From Proteobacteria bacterium UBA981 (GTDB lineage: Bacteria; Pseudomonadota; Gammaproteobacteria; Ga0077536), in the NCBI GenBank assembly GCA_002292285.1, contig DBBP01000002.1, positions 133,214-197,213 on the forward strand: 64,000 nucleotides of DNA. Direction: 5' to 3'. The notes under the pieces are model-generated. The model was not told where the DNA came from and did no database searches. It was given only the letters and a program-made list of their open reading frames with translations. The translations under genes and the position numbers were made by a program. Positions 21,507 through 45,551 of the stretch are shown here, in pieces; the stretch's first letter is position 1, and each line of letters opens with the position of its first letter.

Positions 21507-21583
21507 TGGCGGAGTGGACGGGACTCGAACCCGCGACCCCCGGCGTGACAGGCCGGTATTCTAACCAACTGAACTACCACTCC
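21507..21583 (-). tRNA. tRNA-Asp (GTC)
   Basis: Reverse complement reads GGAGTGGTAGTTCAGTTGGTTAGAATACCGGCCTGTCACGCCGGGGGTCGCGGGTTCGAGTCCCGTCCACTCCGCCA; cloverleaf with GUC anticodon, near-identical to E. coli tRNA-Asp. Confidence 0.9.
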
Positions 21584-21595
21584 GGTGGCTTTACC

Positions 21596-21672
21596 TGGTG
21601 GGTGCTGAGGGGATCGAACCCCCGACCTTCGCCTTGTAAGGGCGACGCTCTCCCAGCTGAGCTAAGCACCCG
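21596..21672 (-). tRNA. tRNA-Val (TAC)
   Basis: Reverse complement GGGTGCTTAGCTCAGCTGGGAGAGCGTCGCCCTTACAAGGCGAAGGTCGGGGGTTCGATCCCCTCAGCACCCACCA; anticodon loop CUUACAA. Confidence 0.9.
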
Positions 21673-28074: not shown

Positions 28075-28159
<85 letters not shown>

Positions 28160-28410
28160 GGCTGCCGAACCATAATTAGAACGTCGCCCAGGCCCCTGAA
28201 ACCAGGCCCGGAGTGCCGTTACCAGCGCCGATGATCAAGAGCCAGCGAGCCCTTGCCGCGGGCGGCGGCGCGCACTGGCGGGCGCCATTATAGGTGCAGC
28301 CTCAACACGTTGGTAGCCCCGCAATTGCCCGCCAAACTGCGCTTGCATACTATACTGGCCAGCGCGAACCGACTGATGTTGGGACGCTCCCACAAATTGA
28401 GGTGCGACCG

Positions 28411-28890
28411 ATGAATAAGCTTTTGCCTGCGTGTGTATTCGCCTTAGTTGTGATGAACACCCCGAATGTGTCGGCGGTCACCGTTGTCGAATGCGTCGAT
28501 GCTGATGGCAACACCTCATTCCGGGACCAATGTCCGCCCGGCTCAAGCCAAAAAGGCAAGAAGGAAATCAGCGGCCTGGGGGGCAACGACGGCCCGGACC
28601 TGAGCGCCGTTGCAGCAGCAAATCCGATTACGCTCTATACCGTGCCGGACTGCGATGCCTGCGATCTGACCCGCAACGCCCTGAGCGGACGGGATCTGCC
28701 CTTCACTGAGAAAAATGTCCAGGACAACGCGGAAATGCAGGAAGAGCTGAAAACGGCCACAGGCGGACTAACCGTTCCGGGCATCGTGATTGGCGACAAA
28801 GTGCTCACCGGCTACAGCCGCGATGCAATTGACAGTGCGCTAAACGGGGCGGGCTATCCGGCTCCAGCTGAATCCGGAACGCCGCAATAA
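28411..28890 (+). CDS. secreted DUF4124-glutaredoxin fusion protein (CxxC = CDAC)
   Basis: ATG at 28411 with GAGG SD; signal peptide MNKLLPACVFALVVMNTPNVSA. A DUF4124-like segment (VECVDADGNTSFRDQCPPG) is followed by a glutaredoxin-fold domain: ITLYTVPDCDACDLTRNALSGRDLPFTEKNV...GLTVPGIVIGDKVLTGY. Confidence 0.6.
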   Translation: MNKLLPACVFALVVMNTPNVSAVTVVECVDADGNTSFRDQCPPGSSQKGKKEISGLGGNDGPDLSAVAAANPITLYTVPDCDACDLTRNALSGRDLPFTEKNVQDNAEMQEELKTATGGLTVPGIVIGDKVLTGYSRDAIDSALNGAGYPAPAESGTPQ

Positions 28891-28902
28891 TCCCCCGACA
28901 GT

Positions 28903-29349
28903 TTGTTACTGGCCGTGTTTAATTCGTCAATCGATGCTGAAGCGGCATTTTACGCCGCCTTTAGCAACGCCGATATTGATGCCATGGCCGCTATCTGGAT
29001 GCCGGGATCAGATGCAATCTGCGTTCATCCCGGCGGCCCGCGTCTATGCGGTCTGGACGCAATACGCCAGAGCTGGTCACTGATTCTGAGCGATTCGATG
29101 CCGCGGCAGTTCGAACTCCGTGGGCGCCTCATTATCGGCTCCGGTGATTGCCGCATTCACACTCTTGAGGAAAACATCAGTGTACCCGGGACCGAATTCG
29201 TCGCGCCGCCGGTGCTGGCGACGAATATTTATCAAAAACATCGGGATGGCTGGTTGATGGTGCTACATCACGCCAGTGTGTCTCCAGAATCAGTCGCGGA
29301 CACGAAAGATACCGACAAGCCGCGCCATTCATCGCAGGTTCTGCATTAG
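28903..29349 (+). CDS. NTF2-like (SnoaL/DUF4440-type) small protein
   Basis: 148 aa; AEAAFYAAFSNADIDAMAAIW is the typical SnoaL-like N-terminal helix. Start codon uncertain (TTG 28903 or GTG 28915). Confidence 0.45.
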   Translation: MLLAVFNSSIDAEAAFYAAFSNADIDAMAAIWMPGSDAICVHPGGPRLCGLDAIRQSWSLILSDSMPRQFELRGRLIIGSGDCRIHTLEENISVPGTEFVAPPVLATNIYQKHRDGWLMVLHHASVSPESVADTKDTDKPRHSSQVLH

Positions 29350-29478
29350 ACCAAATTGAGACGACGACGACGGTAACCCAGGTTGGGTGCCGCTTGGCGG
29401 TTTCGCAATATCCTGCGCTAGGATTACGTCGGGAGTCGCGCGATCAAAGTTCGGAATTCTTCAATCCAACGAGAAAAT

Positions 29479-29554
<76 letters not shown>

Positions 29555-29612
29555 GCTAAAGCGGAAGGTATCTCGGCAATTCGCTCGTGAAATTGCTGAA
29601 ATATTTATTTAG

Positions 29613-29689
29613 TGGGGTGGACGATGGGGTTCGAACCCACGACATCACGGACCACAACCGTGTGCTCTACCAACTGAGCTACGCCCACC
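29613..29689 (-). tRNA. tRNA-His (GTG) with encoded G-1
   Basis: Reverse complement G-GTGGGCGTAGCTCAGTTGGTAGAGCACACGGTTGTGGTCCGTGATGTCGTGGGTTCGAACCCCATCGTCCACCCCA. The extra 5' G pairs with discriminator C73, the histidine identity element. Confidence 0.85.
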
Positions 29690-29796
29690 ATAGGACTAAA
29701 ATGCTTGGATTGAACAGCAACCGCGTTCGGTGCGAGCTAGCCGCTCACCCTGCCACAGTAACGTGCAATCCGTCACTCGAGCCAATCTTCATAGAT

Positions 29797-29873
29797 TGGC
29801 GCGCCTGGCAGGATTCGAACCTGCTACCCTCGGCTTAGAAGGCCGATGCTCTATCCATATGAGCTACAGGCGC
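29797..29873 (-). tRNA. tRNA-Arg (TCT)
   Basis: Reverse complement GCGCCTGTAGCTCATATGGATAGAGCATCGGCCTTCTAAGCCGAGGGTAGCAGGTTCGAATCCTGCCAGGCGCGCCA; anticodon loop CUUCUAA. Confidence 0.85.
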
Positions 29874-29941
29874 ACGACATCGGACGCCTGAACGTGACAC
29901 CCTGCAAGTACAAGTTTAAACCTTGCGACTGCCAACTCAAA

Positions 29942-30018
<77 letters not shown>

Positions 30019-37127: not shown

Positions 37128-37997
37128 ATGAAAAAGATCCTCTTCCAGCTCGACACCGATCCAATCCCCAATACCTTCGATACCGTGGTCGCCTACGACG
37201 GCGGCGCAGAGCACGTGTCTTGCCGCGGCAATGTTAAACCCAGTACGGTCGGTACGATGGTTGACGGCGCCGTGTTCACGCGACCGCCGCGCGCAAAGAA
37301 AAATACCGCTTTATTTATTACCGGCAGCAACATGGGCGAAGGCGAGGCCGTGCTCGCTTCCATCCGAAATCATTTCTTCGCTGATTTTCGCGTCTCAGTC
37401 ATGCTCGATAGCAACGGTAGTAACACCACAGCTGCTGCGGCTGCCGCTGTCATCGGCAACCATCTCGACGTACGCGGCAAGCGCGTCGTCATCCTGGCCG
37501 GGACTGGCCCTGTCGGTCAAAGGGCGGGGGTCATGCTGGCCGGCGAAGGCGCTGAAGTGACGTTGACCTCGAGACGTCTTGACCGCGCCGAAACCGCTTG
37601 CGAAGCCATGCGTAGACGCTTCAAAGTTGAGCTGACGCCTGCCGCTACGGGTGACCCGGCTTCGTTAAGCGAAGTTGTCAGTCGCGCCAACATATTGCTG
37701 GCGACGGGCGCCGCGGGCGTGCAGCTAATTCACAACGTAGAGTGGCAAAGCGTTACCGAACTCGAACTCCTACTTGATGCCAATGCGACCCCACCATTGG
37801 GTATCGAGGGCGTCGACATGATGGATCGTGCCACCGAGCGCCACGGCAAAATTTGCTATGGCGCAATAGGTTTTGGTTCGTTCAAACTCGAAGTCCATCG
37901 CGCTTGCATCAGCCAACTGTTCGAATCAAATTCGCGCGATCTCGACGCACCAGAGATATTTGCATTGGCGAAGTCCATGGTGGAGGGCCGCGCGTGA
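37128..37997 (+). CDS. MtdA-like NAD(P)-dependent methylene-tetrahydromethanopterin/methylene-tetrahydrofolate dehydrogenase homologue
   Basis: 289 aa; MKKILFQLDTDPIPNTFDTVVAYDGGAEHV, FRVSVMLDSNGSNTTAAAA, VILAGTGPVGQRAGVMLAGEGAEV, LEVHRACISQLFES are collinear with Methylobacterium MtdA. Confidence 0.7.
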   Translation: MKKILFQLDTDPIPNTFDTVVAYDGGAEHVSCRGNVKPSTVGTMVDGAVFTRPPRAKKNTALFITGSNMGEGEAVLASIRNHFFADFRVSVMLDSNGSNTTAAAAAAVIGNHLDVRGKRVVILAGTGPVGQRAGVMLAGEGAEVTLTSRRLDRAETACEAMRRRFKVELTPAATGDPASLSEVVSRANILLATGAAGVQLIHNVEWQSVTELELLLDANATPPLGIEGVDMMDRATERHGKICYGAIGFGSFKLEVHRACISQLFESNSRDLDAPEIFALAKSMVEGRA

Positions 37998-38025: not shown

Positions 38026-38691
38026 ATGTGCGGGCGCTTCGCTCTCATCAGTGATCCGGCGGAATTGGCAGAACAATTCGGCGCCGAGTTACCCGCCCGA
38101 TTTGCACCGCGCTATAACATCGCACCATCGCAAGCGCTGCTGAGCGTACGCATGGAACACGGTGAACGTCGCTCGGCATTGTTGCAATGGGGACTGTTGC
38201 CGAGCTGGGCCAAAGACGCGTCCGCCAGCCGCCGGCCGATTAATGCGCGCGCCGAAACGGTCGCCGAGAAACCTTCCTTCCGGGCCGCTTACCGACGGCG
38301 TCGATGTTTGGTCCCGGCAGATGGATATTACGAATGGCGAAGCGAGGACGGGCGCAAACAACCCTACTTCATTTACCGCCGCGACCGCGCCAGTTTCGCT
38401 ATGGCCGCGCTGTGGGAATATTGGGAGCAGGACGGCAGCGCGATTGAAACTTGCGCATTGCTGACCTGCGCAGCTAACCAGATCATTGCCCCGGTACATC
38501 ACCGCATGCCAGTGATTATCGACTCGACAGACTACTCGGTGTGGCTGGATCCGGCAGCCGGATCCACACACGTCGCACATTTACTGCAGGCGAGTAGCGA
38601 TGAAACGCTTGCCTATTATCCGGTCTCGACACGGGTCAATTTACCCGCGAACGATTCCGTGGAATGCATCGAGGAGAAGCTTGTTGGCTAA
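38026..38691 (+). CDS. SOS response-associated peptidase (SRAP/YedK family, abasic-site processing protein)
   Basis: 221 aa; N-terminal MCGRFAL with catalytic Cys2; conserved YNIAPSQ, ADGYYEW motifs. Confidence 0.85.
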   Translation: MCGRFALISDPAELAEQFGAELPARFAPRYNIAPSQALLSVRMEHGERRSALLQWGLLPSWAKDASASRRPINARAETVAEKPSFRAAYRRRRCLVPADGYYEWRSEDGRKQPYFIYRRDRASFAMAALWEYWEQDGSAIETCALLTCAANQIIAPVHHRMPVIIDSTDYSVWLDPAAGSTHVAHLLQASSDETLAYYPVSTRVNLPANDSVECIEEKLVG

Positions 38692-39652
38692 GCCGTACTA
38701 CCTGTTGCTGGCGCTTCTCGCTGTGTGCCCTGGAAGCATTGCAGATAACCATCTTGCTGGTTCAAACACTCAATCCCCACACGCCTCTGCGGGCCAATCG
38801 GGCGCATCGGCGGCTGCTTCCGATCCCGGAGCGGCCATGTTCAAGGCGGCCCGAGCAGCGAGCGCTGCGTATCTCGCCGGCGACCCTGGTACAGCTATCG
38901 ACTGGTGGCAACGCGCACACGAACTCGGATACCCCGATGCGGCATTCAACCTCGGCTTACTGTTGTTGCGAGAAACCGCTACCGTCGAGCAAGGCCGGCA
39001 ATGGTTGCACCTGGCAGCGGCTACAAACGATCCGTTGGCATGTTTCGTTCTCGGCACGAGCCTTGCCGAAGACGGCCGTACGGAATGGTCTGCGGAAGCG
39101 CTAAAGTTTCTTGAATGTGCGGCCAGTCAAGGTTACGCGCCGGCCCAGTACAACTTAGCGACGCTATTGGCCGGGCAGGAATTGTCACCCGCAACGCTGA
39201 GCAGCGCGCGCGCCTGGTACGCGGCAGCAGCAATCACCTTTGCGCCCGCCCGCGGGGCTTTGTCCGCACTCCCGACACAGGCGCCAGTGAGGGCGCCAGC
39301 GACAGCAGTTGTTCAGCCGGGTGTCCACGGGATCGACTGGGTTATGTCCCGCCCGTCAGACTATTTCACGGTGCAAATCGGCGTTGGTCGAGACACGGCG
39401 GCGCTCGAGGCGATGCTAAAACGTCACGTAAAAGATGTTGATACTGCATGGTTTCTCCATCGCCCTGCGGCGCGAGCGCCGTATAGCGCTATTGCAGGTG
39501 CTTACGCGGATCAAAGCGAAGCGGAACAGTTACTTGCAGGGCTCCCTGCCAGCCTTAAACGCAACGGACCATGGGTTCGGCGCTTCGCTACTTTGCACGC
39601 GGAACTGGCGCTCATCGAAGCACCGGCTCTCCCCCCTCCGTCGCCAGAGTAA
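38681..39652 (+). CDS. secreted Sel1-repeat protein with C-terminal SPOR domain
   Basis: Probable TTG start at 38681 with GAGGAG SD, overlapping the SRAP stop. Signal peptide LLAKPYYLLLALLAVCPGSIA, Sel1-like repeats (AQYNLATLLAGQ...), C-terminal SPOR-like domain (YFTVQIGVGRDTAALEAMLKRHV...). Confidence 0.6.
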   Translation: MLAKPYYLLLALLAVCPGSIADNHLAGSNTQSPHASAGQSGASAAASDPGAAMFKAARAASAAYLAGDPGTAIDWWQRAHELGYPDAAFNLGLLLLRETATVEQGRQWLHLAAATNDPLACFVLGTSLAEDGRTEWSAEALKFLECAASQGYAPAQYNLATLLAGQELSPATLSSARAWYAAAAITFAPARGALSALPTQAPVRAPATAVVQPGVHGIDWVMSRPSDYFTVQIGVGRDTAALEAMLKRHVKDVDTAWFLHRPAARAPYSAIAGAYADQSEAEQLLAGLPASLKRNGPWVRRFATLHAELALIEAPALPPPSPE

Positions 39653-39698
39653 GGTGATATGATCGCGCCCTTCCTTCTGTAATTTACGTACTCTGGAG

Positions 39699-40436
39699 AT
39701 GTCCCGATTCGAGGAGATCCTAACCGCGCATAGCGAAGTCCTGCTCAAGGCCCTCTACAGATCCGCGAGTAGTCACGACGATCGCGCACCAGGCGGCACT
39801 GCTCGCACGCGTCAGGTCGCCGAAAACCTCGGCCTCAGCTATCCACAGTTGGTTTGTGCGGTTGGCTTCAATCCCCATATTGAGAATTTGTCAGACGTTA
39901 TCGCGATAATGGGCTTCAGCTCCTACGATGCGCTGGCCCGCGAGCGAAATCTCGCTTTCGTCAATGACATCTACCAGCAACTTTCAATCAGAGACATTCT
40001 GGCGCTGTATCTGCACGTGGCTGGCAGCGCACCGATGCTCGAGATAATTCAGCATCTGCTGCAAAAACGTCTGGAAAAAATTGAAGAGCGCATAGAGCAG
40101 ACGGTGAGCTCGTTGTTCATCGAGCGCTATAAGAAAGAAATGCGGGCCATTTACAGTGACGGCGTGGCGCAAATTGATTTCGCGGAGACCAGACTGGAAA
40201 AAACCCACAGCGGTTTCCGCGCGTTGCTGAACAAGGTGGCCTTGATTGTAGAAAGTCGCTTGATCCCGGTTGGGGATATCTTTTTTCGCGCCTCAATCCT
40301 GCCTGAAGAAAAACGACGTCTGATTATCCGCGGTCTGATTCCGCGCGAGATTGTTGAAGCGCGTTTGGCGGATGCGAAAATTTCCGAACAAGAGCGGTAC
40401 GTTCTGGAAGACCAACTCAAGTTACTCGACGCATGA
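39699..40436 (+). CDS. uncharacterised protein, paralogue A of a tandem pair
   Basis: 245 aa, predicted all-alpha, no recognisable motifs. Shares collinear similarity with the next gene (QLVCAVGFN / QLVCALGFN; VGFSSY; IVESRLIP / IVESDLLP; PEEKRRLI / PAEKRFLI; C-terminal EQERYVLED / EDERQMLED). Confidence 0.55.
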   Translation: MSRFEEILTAHSEVLLKALYRSASSHDDRAPGGTARTRQVAENLGLSYPQLVCAVGFNPHIENLSDVIAIMGFSSYDALARERNLAFVNDIYQQLSIRDILALYLHVAGSAPMLEIIQHLLQKRLEKIEERIEQTVSSLFIERYKKEMRAIYSDGVAQIDFAETRLEKTHSGFRALLNKVALIVESRLIPVGDIFFRASILPEEKRRLIIRGLIPREIVEARLADAKISEQERYVLEDQLKLLDA

Positions 40437-40503
40437 ACGCTCGCTGCACATCCACACTCTCGCATGTCCGTTTGATTGTTGATCGCCAGGATAACCATTA
40501 AGC

Positions 40504-41220
40504 ATGTCGTCATTTCGCGAAGTACTTACTGCCAGTGACGCCGAGTTGGTCAAGATCTTTTATAAGATCGCGCCCAGCGACGAAAGCGATTTCATCAAGA
40601 AAATAAACAGTACCGCAGCCCAGATAGGGCTCAATCACAGCCAGTTGGTGTGTGCGCTAGGGTTCAATACGAATATTCGCGATCTCACCGATATCCTGTC
40701 CGTGGTGGGTTTCTCGTCTTACAAACTGCTCACCTATCGGCGTAACGAACTGTTCGCAAACGACATCTATCGCCATCTCGACATCGACAATATTGTCGAT
40801 GTCTATGCTGAGCATATTGAAGATGAAGATATTCTTGCGACCTTGCGTGAATTGTTGCCTGCGCGCCTTGGCAACATCGAAGCCTTACTGGCGGACTCCC
40901 CCGACCCCGCCGCGCTTATCAGTTACAAGATGGAAGTGCATTCCGTCTACAGCGGCGGTGTAGTGACTGCGGAGTTAATCAACCAGCGCCTCGAATCTCC
41001 GATCGGTGGTATCCGGGTGATGATTGAGGAAATCCAGATGATCGTCGAAAGCGATCTCCTCCCGCGCAGCAATATGTTTTTCTCCGAGCATCTCCTGCCT
41101 GCCGAGAAGCGCTTTTTGATCGAAAACGGTGATATCGATCAATCGATGATCGTGAATCGTCTGAACAATTCAGAAGTGTCCGAAGATGAACGGCAAATGC
41201 TCGAGGATTTCGTCGAGTAG
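40504..41220 (+). CDS. uncharacterised protein, paralogue B of a tandem pair
   Basis: 238 aa; see paralogue A. 67-bp spacer between the two genes. Confidence 0.55.
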   Translation: MSSFREVLTASDAELVKIFYKIAPSDESDFIKKINSTAAQIGLNHSQLVCALGFNTNIRDLTDILSVVGFSSYKLLTYRRNELFANDIYRHLDIDNIVDVYAEHIEDEDILATLRELLPARLGNIEALLADSPDPAALISYKMEVHSVYSGGVVTAELINQRLESPIGGIRVMIEEIQMIVESDLLPRSNMFFSEHLLPAEKRFLIENGDIDQSMIVNRLNNSEVSEDERQMLEDFVE

Positions 41221-41365: not shown

Positions 41366-43735
41366 CTAATTGCGCGCCGCAAGATCAAGCCAAGTTTGCA
41401 CCACCGTATCCGGATTGAGCGAAATGCTCTCGATGCCCTGATCAAGCAGCCATTCAGCAAGATCTTCATGATCTGATGGCCCTTGCCCGCAGATCCCAAC
41501 GTATTTGTCAGCCGCCCGACAGGCTGCAATCGCTTGCGCCATAAGCGCTTTAACCGCGTCGTTGCGCTCGTCGAAACGATCGGCAACGAGCCCCGAGTCG
41601 CGATCCAGGCCGAGCGTCAATTGAGTTAAATCGTTCGAGCCGATGGAAAAACCATCGAAATGTTCGAGAAATTGTTCTGCAAGTAGTGCGTTGGAGGGCA
41701 ACTCACACATCATGATGACGCGTAAATCATTCTCACCGCGAGCCAATCCGTTCGCGCCGAGCAATGTCATTACTTGTGCCGCCTCTTCCACCGTTCGCAC
41801 AAACGGGACCATCACTTGTACGTTACTGAGACCCATCTCATTGCGGACATAGCGCAAGGCCTCACATTCCATTTCAAAGCAGGGTTGAAACGATTCGGCG
41901 ACGTAACGCGACGCGCCTCGAAATCCGAGCATAGGGTTCTCTTCGTCCGGCTCGTAGCGCTGTCCACCGATGAGATTCGCATATTCATTCGATTTAAAGT
42001 CAGACAAGCGGACAATCACCGGCTCTGGGGCAAACGCCGCGCCAATCGTTGAGATACCTTCAATGAGGCGCTGGACAAAGAACTCCCGCGGACTCGGGTA
42101 GGCGGCGATAAGCGGCGCGATTGTGGCCTTCAGATCGACCGGTAAGTGGTCGTATTCGAGTAACGCACGTGGATGAATGCCAATCATCCGGTTGATAATG
42201 AACTCAAGGCGCGCGAGACCAACACCACGATGCGGTAATGCGGCGAACGCGAACGCGCGGTCAGGATTGCCGACATTCATCATGATTTTGAGGCCGATTT
42301 CGGGCATCGCATCGAGTTTTATTTCGCGTCGCTCAAAATCCAGATCGCCGGCATAGACATACCCGGTATCACCACCCGCGCAAGACACTGTGACGGCGTC
42401 GCCGGCCTGGATCGCGTCAGTGGCGTCGCCGCAACCCACGATAGCGGGAACGCCTAGTTCGCGCGCGATGATCGCGGCATGACAGGTGCGGCCACCGCGA
42501 TTGGTGACGATCGCCGAAGCGCGCTTCATGACCGGCTCCCAATCCGGGTCAGTCATGTCTGTTACGAGCACATCGCCTTCCCGTAGCGTGTCCATTTGTT
42601 CAATGCTACTGAGAACGCGCGCGGTGCCGGCACCAATTTTCTGACCAATACTACGACCTTCGGCGAGCACTGGGCCTTCGCCCTTCAATTCGTAGCGTTC
42701 GATGATTTGGCCGCTGTGGCTTTGCACGGTCTCGGGGCGAGCCTGCACGACATAGAGCTGGCCGTCGATACCATCTTTGGCCCACTCGATGTCCATCGGA
42801 CGGCCATAATGGGCTTCGATCGCCATCGCGAGGCGAGCGAGTTCTTCAACCTCGTCGTCCGTAATGCAAAAGCATTGACGTTTGGCCTCGGCAACTTCTG
42901 TGGTGATCACCGGTTCTGCGCCGTCGGCACCTTTATCGGCGTAGATCATCTGCAAGTGCTTACTGCCCGCAGTGCGTCTCAAAATGCCTTTTTTAGCAGC
43001 AGCAATTGCCGGCTTGTAGACGTAAAACTCGTCAGGATTTACTGCCCCCTGAACGACCATTTCACCCAGTCCGTAGCTGGCCGTCACAAATACAACATCG
43101 CGAAACCCCGACTCGGTATCGAGCGTGAACATCACGCCGCTGGCGCCGATGTCACTGCGTACCATGCGCTGGATTCCGGCCGACAGGGCGACCTGATGGT
43201 GGGAGAATCCCTGATGCACGCGGTAGGAAATCGCGCGGTCGTTAAACAACGAAGCAAACACATCCTTGATGCGGCGGCAAACGTCGGCAATGCCATTAAC
43301 GTTGAGGTAGGTCTCCTGTTGACCGGCAAATGAAGCGGTCGGTAAATCTTCGGCAGTGGCCGATGAGCGCACTGCAACGGAAAATTCTTCGCCAATGTCG
43401 CTCTGCATCGCGCTGTAGGCAGTCTCGACGCTTTGCTGGAGGGCTGGAGGAAATGGGGCGTCGATAATCCATTGTCGGATTTCCTTGCCGGTGCGCACCA
43501 GTTCTCCAACGTCTTCGACATCCAGACCGTCAAGCGTGTCATTGATGCGCTGGTCGAGGCCAGCAGCGTTGAGAAAATCGCGGAATGCCTGTGCGGTGGT
43601 GGCGAAACCGCCTGGTACACGTACGCCAGCGGCGTCGAGGTGGCGGATCATTTCGCCAAGCGACGCATTCTTACCACCGACGCTGTCGACGTCATCGATA
43701 CCCACGTCTTTCAGAGAGACGATATAATCGTTCAT
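41366..43735 (-). CDS. ppsA: phosphoenolpyruvate synthase (pyruvate, water dikinase)
   Basis: 789 aa; [29 protein letters not shown] start, phosphohistidine-domain [24 protein letters not shown]-utilising C-terminal domain. Confidence 0.95.
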
Positions 43736-44972: not shown

Positions 44973-45551
44973 ATGCGAATTGTGACCCTGATTTTTGCCC
45001 TTGCGCTGTTTTGCTCAACGGCTCAGGCCGAGTCGACGACTTTTCAACAGCATGAAGTCGATATTTACTCGGCGTTGATCAACCACGGTCTGGGTACCCG
45101 GGTACCGATTGTGGTGCTCTCCGAGCAGACCACCGGTGTCCCCGCCGCTATCGCGGAACACGAAGACACTGCGGCCCTGGTCAACGAACTCGGCGCACCC
45201 GCCACCGCACTGCGAAGCTGGCAACGTCGCAATGACTCCCGCCACGCGATTGAAAGCCCGCTCAAACTCGACGTGTCCTATCAAATGCTGGATGCCGAAA
45301 TGCGCGCCGAACTATTCGATGGTGTGGAACCGGCTGCCGGTTGGGGTCGATTCTTTGCCCACTTCGAGGGCGCACCGGGCCTGCTACGAGTGTCGCGCGC
45401 TGGCTTTGACGACGTTCTCAAACACGCGCTGGTCTATGCGGAGTTCCAATGCGGGATCAATTGCGGCTCTGGGCGTCTAATCCACCTGATCAACGACACC
45501 GGTAAGACGTGGCAAGTGAGCAATGCCGCTGTCGTGTGGATGGTCGAGTAA
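44973..45551 (+). CDS. secreted hypothetical protein
   Basis: 192 aa; signal peptide MRIVTLIFALALFCSTAQA; no recognisable domain; first gene of a tightly spaced plus-strand cluster. Confidence 0.5.
   Translation: MRIVTLIFALALFCSTAQAESTTFQQHEVDIYSALINHGLGTRVPIVVLSEQTTGVPAAIAEHEDTAALVNELGAPATALRSWQRRNDSRHAIESPLKLDVSYQMLDAEMRAELFDGVEPAAGWGRFFAHFEGAPGLLRVSRAGFDDVLKHALVYAEFQCGINCGSGRLIHLINDTGKTWQVSNAAVVWMVE

What the first reader, a model, noticed from the sequence alone, without database searches (positions are those of the whole stretch)
39699..41220. Tandem pair of paralogous, uncharacterised ~240-aa proteins between the Sel1/SPOR gene and ppsA
The two adjacent plus-strand genes (245 and 238 aa, 67-bp spacer) are clearly homologous along their whole length, with several conserved blocks (listed in the feature evidence). 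I recognise no known domain, catalytic motif, signal peptide or TM segment; both look all-helical and acidic at the C-terminus. A diverged tandem duplication of an unknown family is a good candidate for an undescribed function, for example a regulator/anti-regulator or immunity-like pair.
Basis: seen in the sequence. Interest (0 to 1): 0.6.

Follow-up and report, generated by a model that had tools for sequence, protein, structure and literature searches.

The report
Unnamed paired helical-scaffold proteins, function unknown
Two neighbouring genes in an uncultured marine bacterium encode related, all-helical proteins from a small family that no database names; they are ordinary inherited chromosomal genes that probably work as a two-part unit, but what they do remains unknown.

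Summary
ORF1 (39699-40436, 245 aa) and ORF2 (40504-41220, 238 aa) are real genes under purifying selection, 37% identical over their full length (E=1e-52), separated by 67 bp.

The family is tiny (120 clusters among 1.84 billion representatives). All 63 genome hits are uncultured MAGs, nearly all labelled Gamma-/Pseudomonadota. It is inherited vertically inside a conserved housekeeping block: nadC-mtd-(SRAP)-(Sel1/SPOR)-ORF1-(ORF2)-ppsA.

The pair is not obligatory. ORF1 stands alone in about 40 of 58 informative genomes. ORF2 stems from one ancient duplication followed by repeated loss. Four natural ORF1-ORF2 fusion proteins exist, and one folds as a compact two-lobed unit (pTM 0.76).

Best reading: a cytoplasmic alpha-solenoid binding module acting as a (pseudo)dimer, ligand unknown. 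The immunity-pair and regulator/anti-regulator ideas are not supported. It is a genuine but modest finding, in effect a new domain-of-unknown-function family.

The parts
39699..40436 (+). ORF1, 245 aa: the universally retained paralogue. Cytoplasmic, all-alpha (16 helices), near-neutral (pI 6.1).
   Evidence: ORF. 100%-identical protein present in public assemblies. AlphaFold pLDDT 91.2, pTM 0.85. Present in all 63 related genome loci. dN/dS 0.06-0.12.
40437..40503 (+). 67-nt ORF1-ORF2 spacer with no terminator-like site and no promoter-like site; co-transcription is inferred.
   Evidence: Sequence. The promoter/terminator scan finds nothing in the spacer. Spacers in the 18 other pair-bearing loci are 16-55 nt in 16 cases, and 206 and 235 nt in two.
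40504..41220 (+). ORF2, 238 aa: the acidic paralogue (pI 4.5, net charge -21), retained in only about a third of related genomes.
   Evidence: ORF. 37% identical to ORF1, E=1e-52. Orthologue clade is monophyletic. Median pI 4.7 across 19 orthologues. dN/dS 0.04-0.18. Found in 18 of 58 informative loci.
38684..39652 (+). Context only: the upstream exported SPOR-domain (Sel1-like) protein. It is the commonest immediate upstream neighbour, and no functional link has been shown.
   Evidence: SPOR E=2.4e-7 and Sel1 E=0.016. Gene callers use the 322-aa start. The TTG at 38684 overlaps the SRAP stop and is followed by a signal peptide. Present upstream in 43 of 62 loci and in 18 of 18 ORF2-bearing loci.
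37128..37997 (+). Context only: Mtd-like (Mpt_N) dehydrogenase gene, a conserved upstream neighbour that is retained next to the fused forms.
   Evidence: Pfam Mpt_N E=1.5e-27. Upstream in most loci and in the fusion loci L068/L070 beside FchA and MCH.
41366..43735 (-). Context only: ppsA (PEP synthase), convergent downstream neighbour.
   Evidence: Pfam PPDK_N, PEP-utilizers and PEP-utilizers_C. Follows ORF1 or ORF2 in most loci but not in all.

Best explanation
ORF1 and ORF2 are ancient tandem paralogues of an unnamed, lineage-restricted family of soluble cytoplasmic alpha-solenoid proteins. The family is a vertically inherited core gene of a group of uncultured (mostly gamma-)proteobacteria.

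The most likely working unit is a two-lobed dimer. That would be an ORF1-ORF2 heterodimer where both genes are kept (as in this window), an ORF1 homodimer where ORF2 was lost, and a single-chain pseudo-dimer in the clade where the two genes fused.

Like other HEAT/ARM/TOG/MIF4G-type solenoids, it most likely acts by binding a partner, whether protein, peptide or other ligand, rather than by catalysis. Binding would use a surface built from the about 18 polar residues kept in both paralogues (Q50, C53, N58, D90, Y92, Y104, R124, E129, Y144, E147, Y152, R165, R174, E179, E204, K205, R222, E232).

Shown: the paralogy, the single ancient duplication with later losses, purifying selection, vertical inheritance, the existence of fusions in the ORF1-then-ORF2 order, and the helical solenoid-like fold.

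Inferred: physical dimerisation, a binding rather than catalytic role, and homodimerisation of lone ORF1. The ligand and the cellular process are unknown.
For: Paralogy: 37% identity, E=1e-52.

Duplication history: an NJ tree of 60 ORF1-type and 19 ORF2-type proteins makes each type monophyletic, with matching internal groupings. That fits one old duplication plus several ORF2 losses.

Fusions: four natural 485-489-aa fusion proteins span 47-81% identity to each other. Their N-terminal halves score best against ORF1 (155 vs 117 bits) and their C-terminal halves against ORF2 (197 vs 141 bits). This is the classic Rosetta-stone signal of a shared complex.

Fusion model: the AlphaFold model of fusion P0241 has pLDDT 86.2 and pTM 0.76 over 485 residues, with only the linker (243-246) and one loop disordered. 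This implies a defined packing of the two halves.

Co-transcription: spacers are short, 16-55 nt in 16 of 18 loci and 67 nt in the window.

Shared residues: 32 positions are at least 93% conserved with the same residue in both clades, so both paralogues keep the same functional surface.

Core-gene status: conserved synteny in 63 genomes; ORF1 identity tracks ppsA and ppsR (rho 0.85 and 0.87); dN/dS 0.04-0.18; GC3 like the neighbours; no viral relatives.
Against: No interface was actually inspected, because the tool returns no PAE or coordinates. pTM 0.76 is therefore only indirect evidence that the lobes pack.

The mirror-tree test was uninformative. Partial r for ORF1-ORF2 was 0.40-0.69, and one reference (Sel1/SPOR, only 8 species) gave -0.22. 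Unrelated neighbour genes gave 0.20-0.70.

The many invariant Tyr, Arg, Glu and Cys residues would also suit an active site.

Two thirds of species manage with ORF1 alone, so ORF2 cannot be an essential partner.

No partner gene is constant across the family. One subfamily sits in an hrpA / Na-H exchanger / CMD-Rieske / transglutaminase context. Gene neighbourhood therefore gives no clue to the ligand.
Confidence: 0.5

Rival explanations
1. The proteins are subunits of an all-helical enzyme or enzyme-like chaperone. This would resemble the helical-repeat CpcE/CpcF bilin lyases, or could be an unknown small-molecule-modifying enzyme. The invariant Cys53 and the Tyr/Arg/Glu residues would form the active site.
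For: There are 32 positions conserved in both paralogues, including a single invariant Cys in the motif QLVCAxGFN and several Tyr, Arg and Glu. Conservation is as strong as in the neighbouring metabolic enzymes: median identity 60% against nadC 58% and Mtd 63%, with dN/dS similar to mtd. ORF1 often directly follows mtd or nadC with gaps of 17-35 nt, and pairwise distances of ORF1 and Mtd correlate at r=0.95. There is precedent that adjacent helical-repeat paralogues, sometimes fused, can form a heterodimeric enzyme (PMC2246261).
Confidence: 0.22
2. The two paralogues do not interact. After duplication they subfunctionalised and each binds its own target independently, or ORF2 is a dispensable back-up copy.
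For: ORF2 is absent next to ORF1 in about 40 of 58 informative genomes. ORF2 evolves faster than ORF1 in most comparisons, for example 70% vs 82% identity to L001. There are 18 ORF1-only and 12 ORF2-only conserved positions and a large charge shift, from median net charge -2.5 to -16. The co-evolution test was inconclusive.
Against: Four independent, diverged fusion proteins keep both halves in the same order under selection. The fusion is predicted as one compact unit. ORF2 is still under strong purifying selection (dN/dS 0.04-0.18) and is always immediately adjacent to ORF1.
Confidence: 0.18
3. This is a regulator/anti-regulator pair. ORF1 would be a DNA-binding or sigma-factor-like regulator that uses the helix-turn-helix-looking stretch at residues 38-57 (AENLGLSYPQLVCAVGFN). 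The acidic ORF2 would be its mimic or antagonist.
For: Residues 34-56 form two helices joined by a short Gly-containing turn, with an 'A-x-x-L-G-L-S/T' pattern reminiscent of HTH motifs. ORF2 orthologues are uniformly very acidic, as DNA mimics and anti-factors often are.
Confidence: 0.07
4. This is an immunity-like, toxin-antitoxin or defence pair.
For: Only the superficial layout fits: two small adjacent co-directional genes of unknown function, one of them acidic.
Against: There are no PADLOC or PHROG hits and no relatives in 2.9 million viral contigs. The genes lie in a deeply conserved housekeeping block with no mobile-element genes in the 64-kb window. Inheritance is vertical and codon-position composition is native. 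The two proteins are paralogues of each other, which is atypical for toxin/immunity pairs. The gene mostly occurs alone.
Confidence: 0.03

Closest known systems
Generic HEAT/ARM-type alpha-solenoid binding domains (TOG domains of CLASP/Stu2, PP2A A-subunit, importin-beta family, MIF4G, CID/VHS)
   Different: Sequence identity is only 4-15%. Foldseek finds nothing below E=0.02 and TM-scores are at most 0.35. No HEAT, Arm or TPR profile matches any of 41 members. No internal sequence repeat is detectable by profile-profile comparison of segments. The matched proteins are eukaryotic machines with no counterpart here. The resemblance is to a fold class, not to a family.
CpcE/CpcF (PecE/PecF) E/F-type phycobilin lyases and their fused form RpcG
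   Same: Adjacent genes encode two subunits that form a heterodimer, and in some lineages one fusion gene replaces them, with N- and C-terminal parts corresponding to the two subunits (PMC2246261). That the subunits are helical-repeat proteins and distant paralogues of each other is my own knowledge. This is the same genetic pattern seen here: a tandem pair, a fusion in the same order, and lineage-specific loss.
   Different: There is no sequence match to HEAT_PBS or lyase families. No phycobiliprotein genes are in the window or related loci, whose surveyed gene content is heterotrophic housekeeping. The NHCQGN-type motif is absent. This is an analogy of architecture only, not membership.
AlkC/AlkD HEAT-like-repeat DNA glycosylases (considered because an SRAP/YedK-type abasic-site protein is encoded two genes upstream)
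   Same: Both are bacterial, about 240 aa, single-domain and all-helical repeat proteins (own knowledge). The window gene lies near a DNA-damage gene, SRAP.

Membership tests
HEAT / ARM / TPR / Sel1 helical-repeat families (Pfam clans) | Repeat units recognisable by the family profile HMMs | tested here: not met
   No HEAT, Arm, TPR or Sel1 hit for ORF1 or ORF2 at E<=1, nor for any of the 41 family members at E<=5, apart from single stray hits to HAT_Syf1 and Cse1.
HEAT / ARM / TPR / Sel1 helical-repeat families (Pfam clans) | Internal sequence periodicity (tandem repeats of 30-45 residues) | tested here: not met
   hhalign of halves and quarters of the family alignment against each other gives a best probability of 2.5%.
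HEAT / ARM / TPR / Sel1 helical-repeat families (Pfam clans) | Alpha-alpha solenoid three-dimensional architecture | tested here: inconclusive
E/F-type bilin lyases (CpcE/CpcF, RpcG) | Sequence membership (HEAT_PBS / lyase profiles) | tested here: not met
   No such Pfam or NCBIfam hit.
E/F-type bilin lyases (CpcE/CpcF, RpcG) | Adjacent paralogous genes, with fused variants in some lineages | tested here: met
   Tandem pair in 18 loci plus the window. Four fusion clusters in ORF1-ORF2 order. This is an analogy only.
E/F-type bilin lyases (CpcE/CpcF, RpcG) | Genomic association with phycobiliprotein genes in a phototroph | tested here: not met
   Window and related loci contain only heterotrophic housekeeping genes.
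AlkC/AlkD HEAT-like-repeat DNA glycosylases | Pfam DNA_alkylation match and catalytic Asp/Trp residues | tested here: not met
Anti-phage defence / toxin-antitoxin / immunity pairs | Match to known defence or immunity models | tested here: not met
   PADLOC gives 0 families for both proteins; PHROGs gives only noise (E=0.0022 and 0.25 to short families of unknown function).
Anti-phage defence / toxin-antitoxin / immunity pairs | Location in variable or mobile regions with patchy, horizontally transferred distribution | tested here: not met
   Deeply syntenic core block. Identity tracks ppsA and ppsR. Native GC3. No viral relatives. No mobile-element genes found in the window.
Helix-turn-helix transcription regulators | Recognisable HTH domain by profile or fold, and a basic DNA-binding surface | tested here: not met
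   No consistent HTH family. No HTH proteins among the fold matches. ORF1 median pI 6.1, ORF2 4.7. DNA binding itself cannot be tested with these tools.

The most novel reading that the evidence does not exclude
ORF1 and ORF2 found a previously undescribed bacterial protein family: a heterodimeric (or single-chain fused) alpha-solenoid assembly factor with a dedicated housekeeping role in a large group of uncultured Gammaproteobacteria. Examples of such a role would be coupling cytoplasmic C1/NAD metabolism (mtd, nadC) or envelope and division functions (the co-conserved Sel1/SPOR protein) to an as-yet unknown client. A remote branch would reach an archaeal-looking ribosome-biogenesis neighbourhood (P0345, between the RIO1 kinase and a KH/PNO1-like gene).
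Probability: 0.2. Interest if true: 0.55.

Novelty: new variant of a known kind. Interest (0 to 1): 0.33.

Why it matters
If the reading is right, this is a clean, well-conserved family that escaped all curated libraries because every carrier found is an uncultured MAG. It is worth registering as a new DUF-type family.

It offers a tidy natural experiment in paralogue evolution, with singleton, tandem heterodimer and fused single-chain forms in sister lineages. It may also mark an unknown housekeeping process in abundant environmental Gammaproteobacteria.

It does not at present open a long-standing question, and nothing about it is mechanistically surprising. Thousands of comparable orphan helical families exist.

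Tried and rejected
1. Sequence libraries. Pfam, NCBIfam, PHROGs and PADLOC on both proteins, and Pfam on all 41 alignment members, gave only scattered sub-threshold noise such as EutH, PBP4 and Peptidase_S11.

2. PDB by sequence, using a single sequence and a profile: nothing.

4. Guilt by association.
- The upstream block nadC/mtd/SRAP/Sel1-SPOR and the downstream ppsA are conserved in the main clade.
- Downstream genes vary elsewhere: TonB-dependent receptor, OM barrel, redoxin, PrpD.
- The fusion clade sits in an H4MPT/THF C1 cluster.
- The divergent P0300 subfamily has a wholly different context: hrpA, Na/H exchanger, CMD-Rieske, transglutaminase.
- No partner gene is constant across the family.

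5. Physical link to the Sel1/SPOR protein: judged unlikely. That protein has a signal peptide and is exported, whereas ORF1 and ORF2 are cytoplasmic.

6. Mirror-tree co-evolution of ORF1 and ORF2: not distinguishable from the neighbour-gene controls.

7. Internal repeat detection: negative.

8. Paired-MSA modelling of the window's own ORF1+ORF2. It was solved only partly, by modelling a natural fusion with a 19/5-row alignment.

10. Horizontal-transfer idea, prompted by the GC dip at 40-42 kb: rejected because GC3 is normal and the dip comes from amino-acid composition.

11. Literature searches for the neighbourhood or family found nothing relevant.

Full report

Yes. The ORF list shows 39699..40436 (+, 245 aa) and 40504..41220 (+, 238 aa), both starting with ATG, and the spacer is 67 nt.

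BLASTP of the two products gives 37% identity and 57% positives over 238 columns with only three gaps, E=1e-52. They are unquestionably homologous over their whole length.

Both are genuine coding genes. Identical proteins are called in many public assemblies. dN/dS is 0.12 (ORF1) and 0.15 (ORF2) on an unsaturated species pair, and 0.04-0.18 on more diverged, near-saturated pairs. That is comparable with the neighbouring mtd gene and lower than nadC.

Neither protein has a hydrophobic N-terminus or a TM-grade segment. The maximum 19-residue hydropathy is 1.36 and 0.88. An AlphaFold model of ORF1 built on a 41-sequence alignment is confident (pLDDT 91.2, pTM 0.85) and consists of 16 helices.

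The upstream gene has a solid SPOR domain, but its Sel1 repeats are below threshold in this copy (E=0.016). They are clear only in its counterparts (tblastn-matched, same position) in L068/L070.

**2. What family is it?**

None that has a name. Pfam, NCBIfam, PHROGs and PADLOC give only noise. Scanning all 41 aligned members against Pfam reveals no family hit by more than two members. PDB sequence searches with one sequence and with the profile return nothing.

A profile search of 1.84 billion cluster representatives finds just 120 proteins, about 50 of them full length, so the family is small.

In the species-representative genome collection, 63 genomes carry it. All are MAGs, nearly all labelled Gamma- or Pseudomonadota, and a few carry implausible binning labels such as Klebsiella. 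They come from marine, groundwater, lake and sludge samples. All source names are 'hypothetical protein'. No relative occurs on viral contigs.

**3. Structure**

The fold is therefore a generic alpha-alpha solenoid without a specific relative. There is no detectable internal sequence repeat. AFDB50 was unavailable.

**4. Genomic setting and inheritance**

Mapping the window's genes onto the 63 loci by tblastn shows a strikingly conserved block: AGCS-nadC-mtd-(SRAP)-(Sel1/SPOR)-ORF1-(ORF2)-ppsA(convergent)-ppsR.

The wider window is plain core genome. It holds tig, clpX, lon, ppiD, a tRNA cluster, fabI, an oligopeptide ABC transporter, fadAB, ppiB, lpxH, ampD/E and aceE, with no mobile-element genes.

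ORF1's identity to the window copy tracks that of ppsA and ppsR across genomes (Spearman 0.85 and 0.87). The GC3 of both ORFs (0.61 and 0.63) equals that of the neighbours, so the GC dip in this bin is an amino-acid-composition effect. This is a vertically inherited chromosomal gene, not a mobile or defence element.

**5. Is the pair obligatory?**

No. ORF2 follows ORF1 in 18 loci. In 40 loci it does not; 32 of these have the next known gene less than 700 nt away. Five loci end too early for the automatic tally to tell.

In an NJ tree, the 60 ORF1-type and 19 ORF2-type proteins form two reciprocally monophyletic clades with parallel internal groupings. Pair-bearing species are scattered through the ORF1 clade. 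The simplest history is a single ancient tandem duplication followed by several independent losses of ORF2. The caveat is that this is a distance tree with midpoint root and no support values.

ORF2 orthologues are uniformly acidic (median pI 4.7, net charge -16), whereas ORF1 is near neutral (pI 6.1, net charge -2.5).

Thirty-two positions are conserved with the same residue in both clades. They include Q50, C53, G56-F57-N58, D90, Y92, Y104, R124, E129, Y144, E147, Y152, R165, R174, E204, K205 and R222. A further 18 positions are conserved only in ORF1 and 12 only in ORF2.

**6. Evidence that the two act together**

The representative search revealed 485-aa proteins with two copies of the domain. 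A dedicated search found four such fusion clusters, 47-81% identical to each other.

Their N-terminal halves are closer to ORF1 (155 vs 117 bits) and their C-terminal halves to ORF2 (197 vs 141 bits). They are therefore fusions of the tandem pair in its genomic order, stably maintained across a diverged clade.

They are single intact genes on long contigs, and are again preceded by mtd and a Sel1/SPOR gene.

An AlphaFold model of fusion P0241 has pLDDT 86.2 and pTM 0.76 over 485 residues, with disorder only in the linker and one loop. For two equal domains on a flexible linker, this pTM implies a defined inter-lobe packing. That is an inference, because no PAE or coordinates were returned.

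**7. What does it do?**

Gene neighbourhood does not say. The immediate upstream gene varies between Sel1/SPOR, mtd and nadC, with small gaps.

The Sel1/SPOR protein most likely starts at the TTG at 38684, overlapping the SRAP stop by 8 nt. It carries a signal peptide (MAKPYYLLLALLAVCPGSIA|DN), so it is exported and is unlikely to contact a cytoplasmic protein directly.

Downstream genes differ wherever ppsA is absent. In the fusion clade the block sits in a C1-transfer cluster with MCH, ATP-grasp genes and FchA.

In a divergent high-GC subfamily (P0300 type, 16 metagenome loci) the context is hrpA, a Na+/H+ exchanger, a CMD-Rieske protein, the family gene and then a convergent transglutaminase-like gene. 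None of the window's neighbours is present.

A still more remote homologue is P0345 (hhalign probability 97%, E=5.5e-11). It lies between a RIO1 kinase gene and a KH/PNO1-like gene.

With no constant partner, no catalytic signature and only scaffold-type structural neighbours, I commit to the following. This is a cytoplasmic alpha-solenoid binding module that works as a two-lobed dimer: hetero, homo or fused. Its ligand is unidentified. My confidence is about 0.5.

The main rival (0.22) is an all-helical enzyme or lyase-like chaperone. That is suggested by the many invariant Tyr, Arg, Glu and Cys residues and by the tight linkage and rate correlation with mtd (r=0.95).

**8. Comparison with known systems**

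The fold class matches HEAT/ARM/TOG/MIF4G scaffolds, but every sequence-level membership test fails.

The genetic pattern mirrors the CpcE/CpcF bilin lyases and their fused form RpcG: adjacent genes for two subunits, a heterodimer, and a fusion gene in some lineages (PMC2246261). That is an analogy of architecture only, since there is no lyase profile and no phycobiliprotein context.

Defence, immunity and TA pairs and HTH regulators are not supported (plus the context above).

**9. Verdict**

However, it is a conserved hypothetical core gene, not an exotic system.

The most interesting points are the singleton / tandem / fused series and the restriction to uncultured lineages. Interest is 0.33, and the novelty category is a new variant of a known kind: an unnamed alpha-solenoid family forming a paralogous (pseudo)dimer.

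Noticed in passing
window 38600-38691 (SRAP 38026-38691; Sel1/SPOR ORF 38600/38684-39652): The longest ORF for the SPOR-domain gene (350 aa, ATG at 38600) would overlap the SRAP gene by 92 nt. Gene callers on identical contigs use a 322-aa product instead. That start is a TTG at 38684, which overlaps the SRAP stop by 8 nt (TTGGCTAA) and yields a textbook signal peptide. The arrangement suggests translational coupling of SRAP and the SPOR protein.
   Followed up: partly
window 44973-45551 (+), 192 aa: This is a second conserved hypothetical with no Pfam or NCBIfam hit. It has a signal-peptide-like N-terminus (MRIVTLIFALALFCSTAQA) and is syntenic downstream of ppsR in about 23 of the related loci (34-58% identity).
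   Followed up: partly
window 37128-37997 (+); L068 5497-6354; L070 4870-6372: The Mtd-like (Mpt_N) dehydrogenase stands alone next to nadC in this window, with no other H4MPT/C1 genes found in the 64 kb. In the fusion-bearing lineages the same gene sits beside FchA (methenyl-THF cyclohydrolase equivalog), MCH and ATP-grasp genes of a C1-transfer cluster. This suggests an MtdA-type methylene-THF dehydrogenase role here.
   Followed up: partly
ORF1 vs Mtd across 14 species (loci L001-L060): Pairwise protein distances of ORF1 and Mtd correlate at r=0.95, with a partial r of 0.82 when controlling for nadC. This is the strongest correlation among all neighbour pairs tested. It may only reflect two clock-like genes, but it is unexplained.
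   Followed up: no
L075 4775-5587 (NCBI GCA_014874255.1, contig JACWAN010000078.1): P0345 (270 aa) is a remote but real homologue (hhalign probability 97%, E=5.5e-11). It lies between a RIO1 kinase gene and a KH/PNO1-KRR1-like gene, near a Toprim protein and an aspartyl/lysyl-type tRNA synthetase. That is an archaeal-looking ribosome-biogenesis neighbourhood on a 60%-GC contig, so the family may reach beyond Proteobacteria.
   Followed up: partly
L078-L093 (metagenome loci), e.g. L079 38-7526, L084 2431-8109, L090 444-9880: A divergent singleton subfamily (P0300 type, 43-62% identical to P0300) has its own conserved neighbourhood: hrpA-type DEAH helicase (DUF3418), a 389-aa Na+/H+ exchanger, an optional CMD-Rieske fusion protein, the family gene, and then a convergent transglutaminase-like/DUF4129 gene.
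   Followed up: partly
window 39680-39701: ORF1 has no well-spaced Shine-Dalgarno sequence. The only GGAG abuts the ATG directly (CTGGAGATG), even though the N-terminus MSxF is conserved across the family. ORF2 has only a weak AGGA 17 nt upstream.
   Followed up: no
window 21507-21671 and 28075-30018 (- strand): There are seven tRNA genes in two groups: Asp-Val at 21.5 kb, and Leu plus a Lys-His-Arg-Pro cluster at 28-30 kb. They flank the tig-clpX-lon-ppiD chaperone/protease region.
   Followed up: no
L013, L020, L024, L034, L055, L056 record titles: Several MAGs carrying this syntenic block are deposited under implausible names (Klebsiella pneumoniae, uncultured Enterobacteriaceae, Hydrogenophaga intermedia). 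Their locus content matches the uncultured gammaproteobacterial group, so these are probably taxonomic mislabels in the public records.
   Followed up: no
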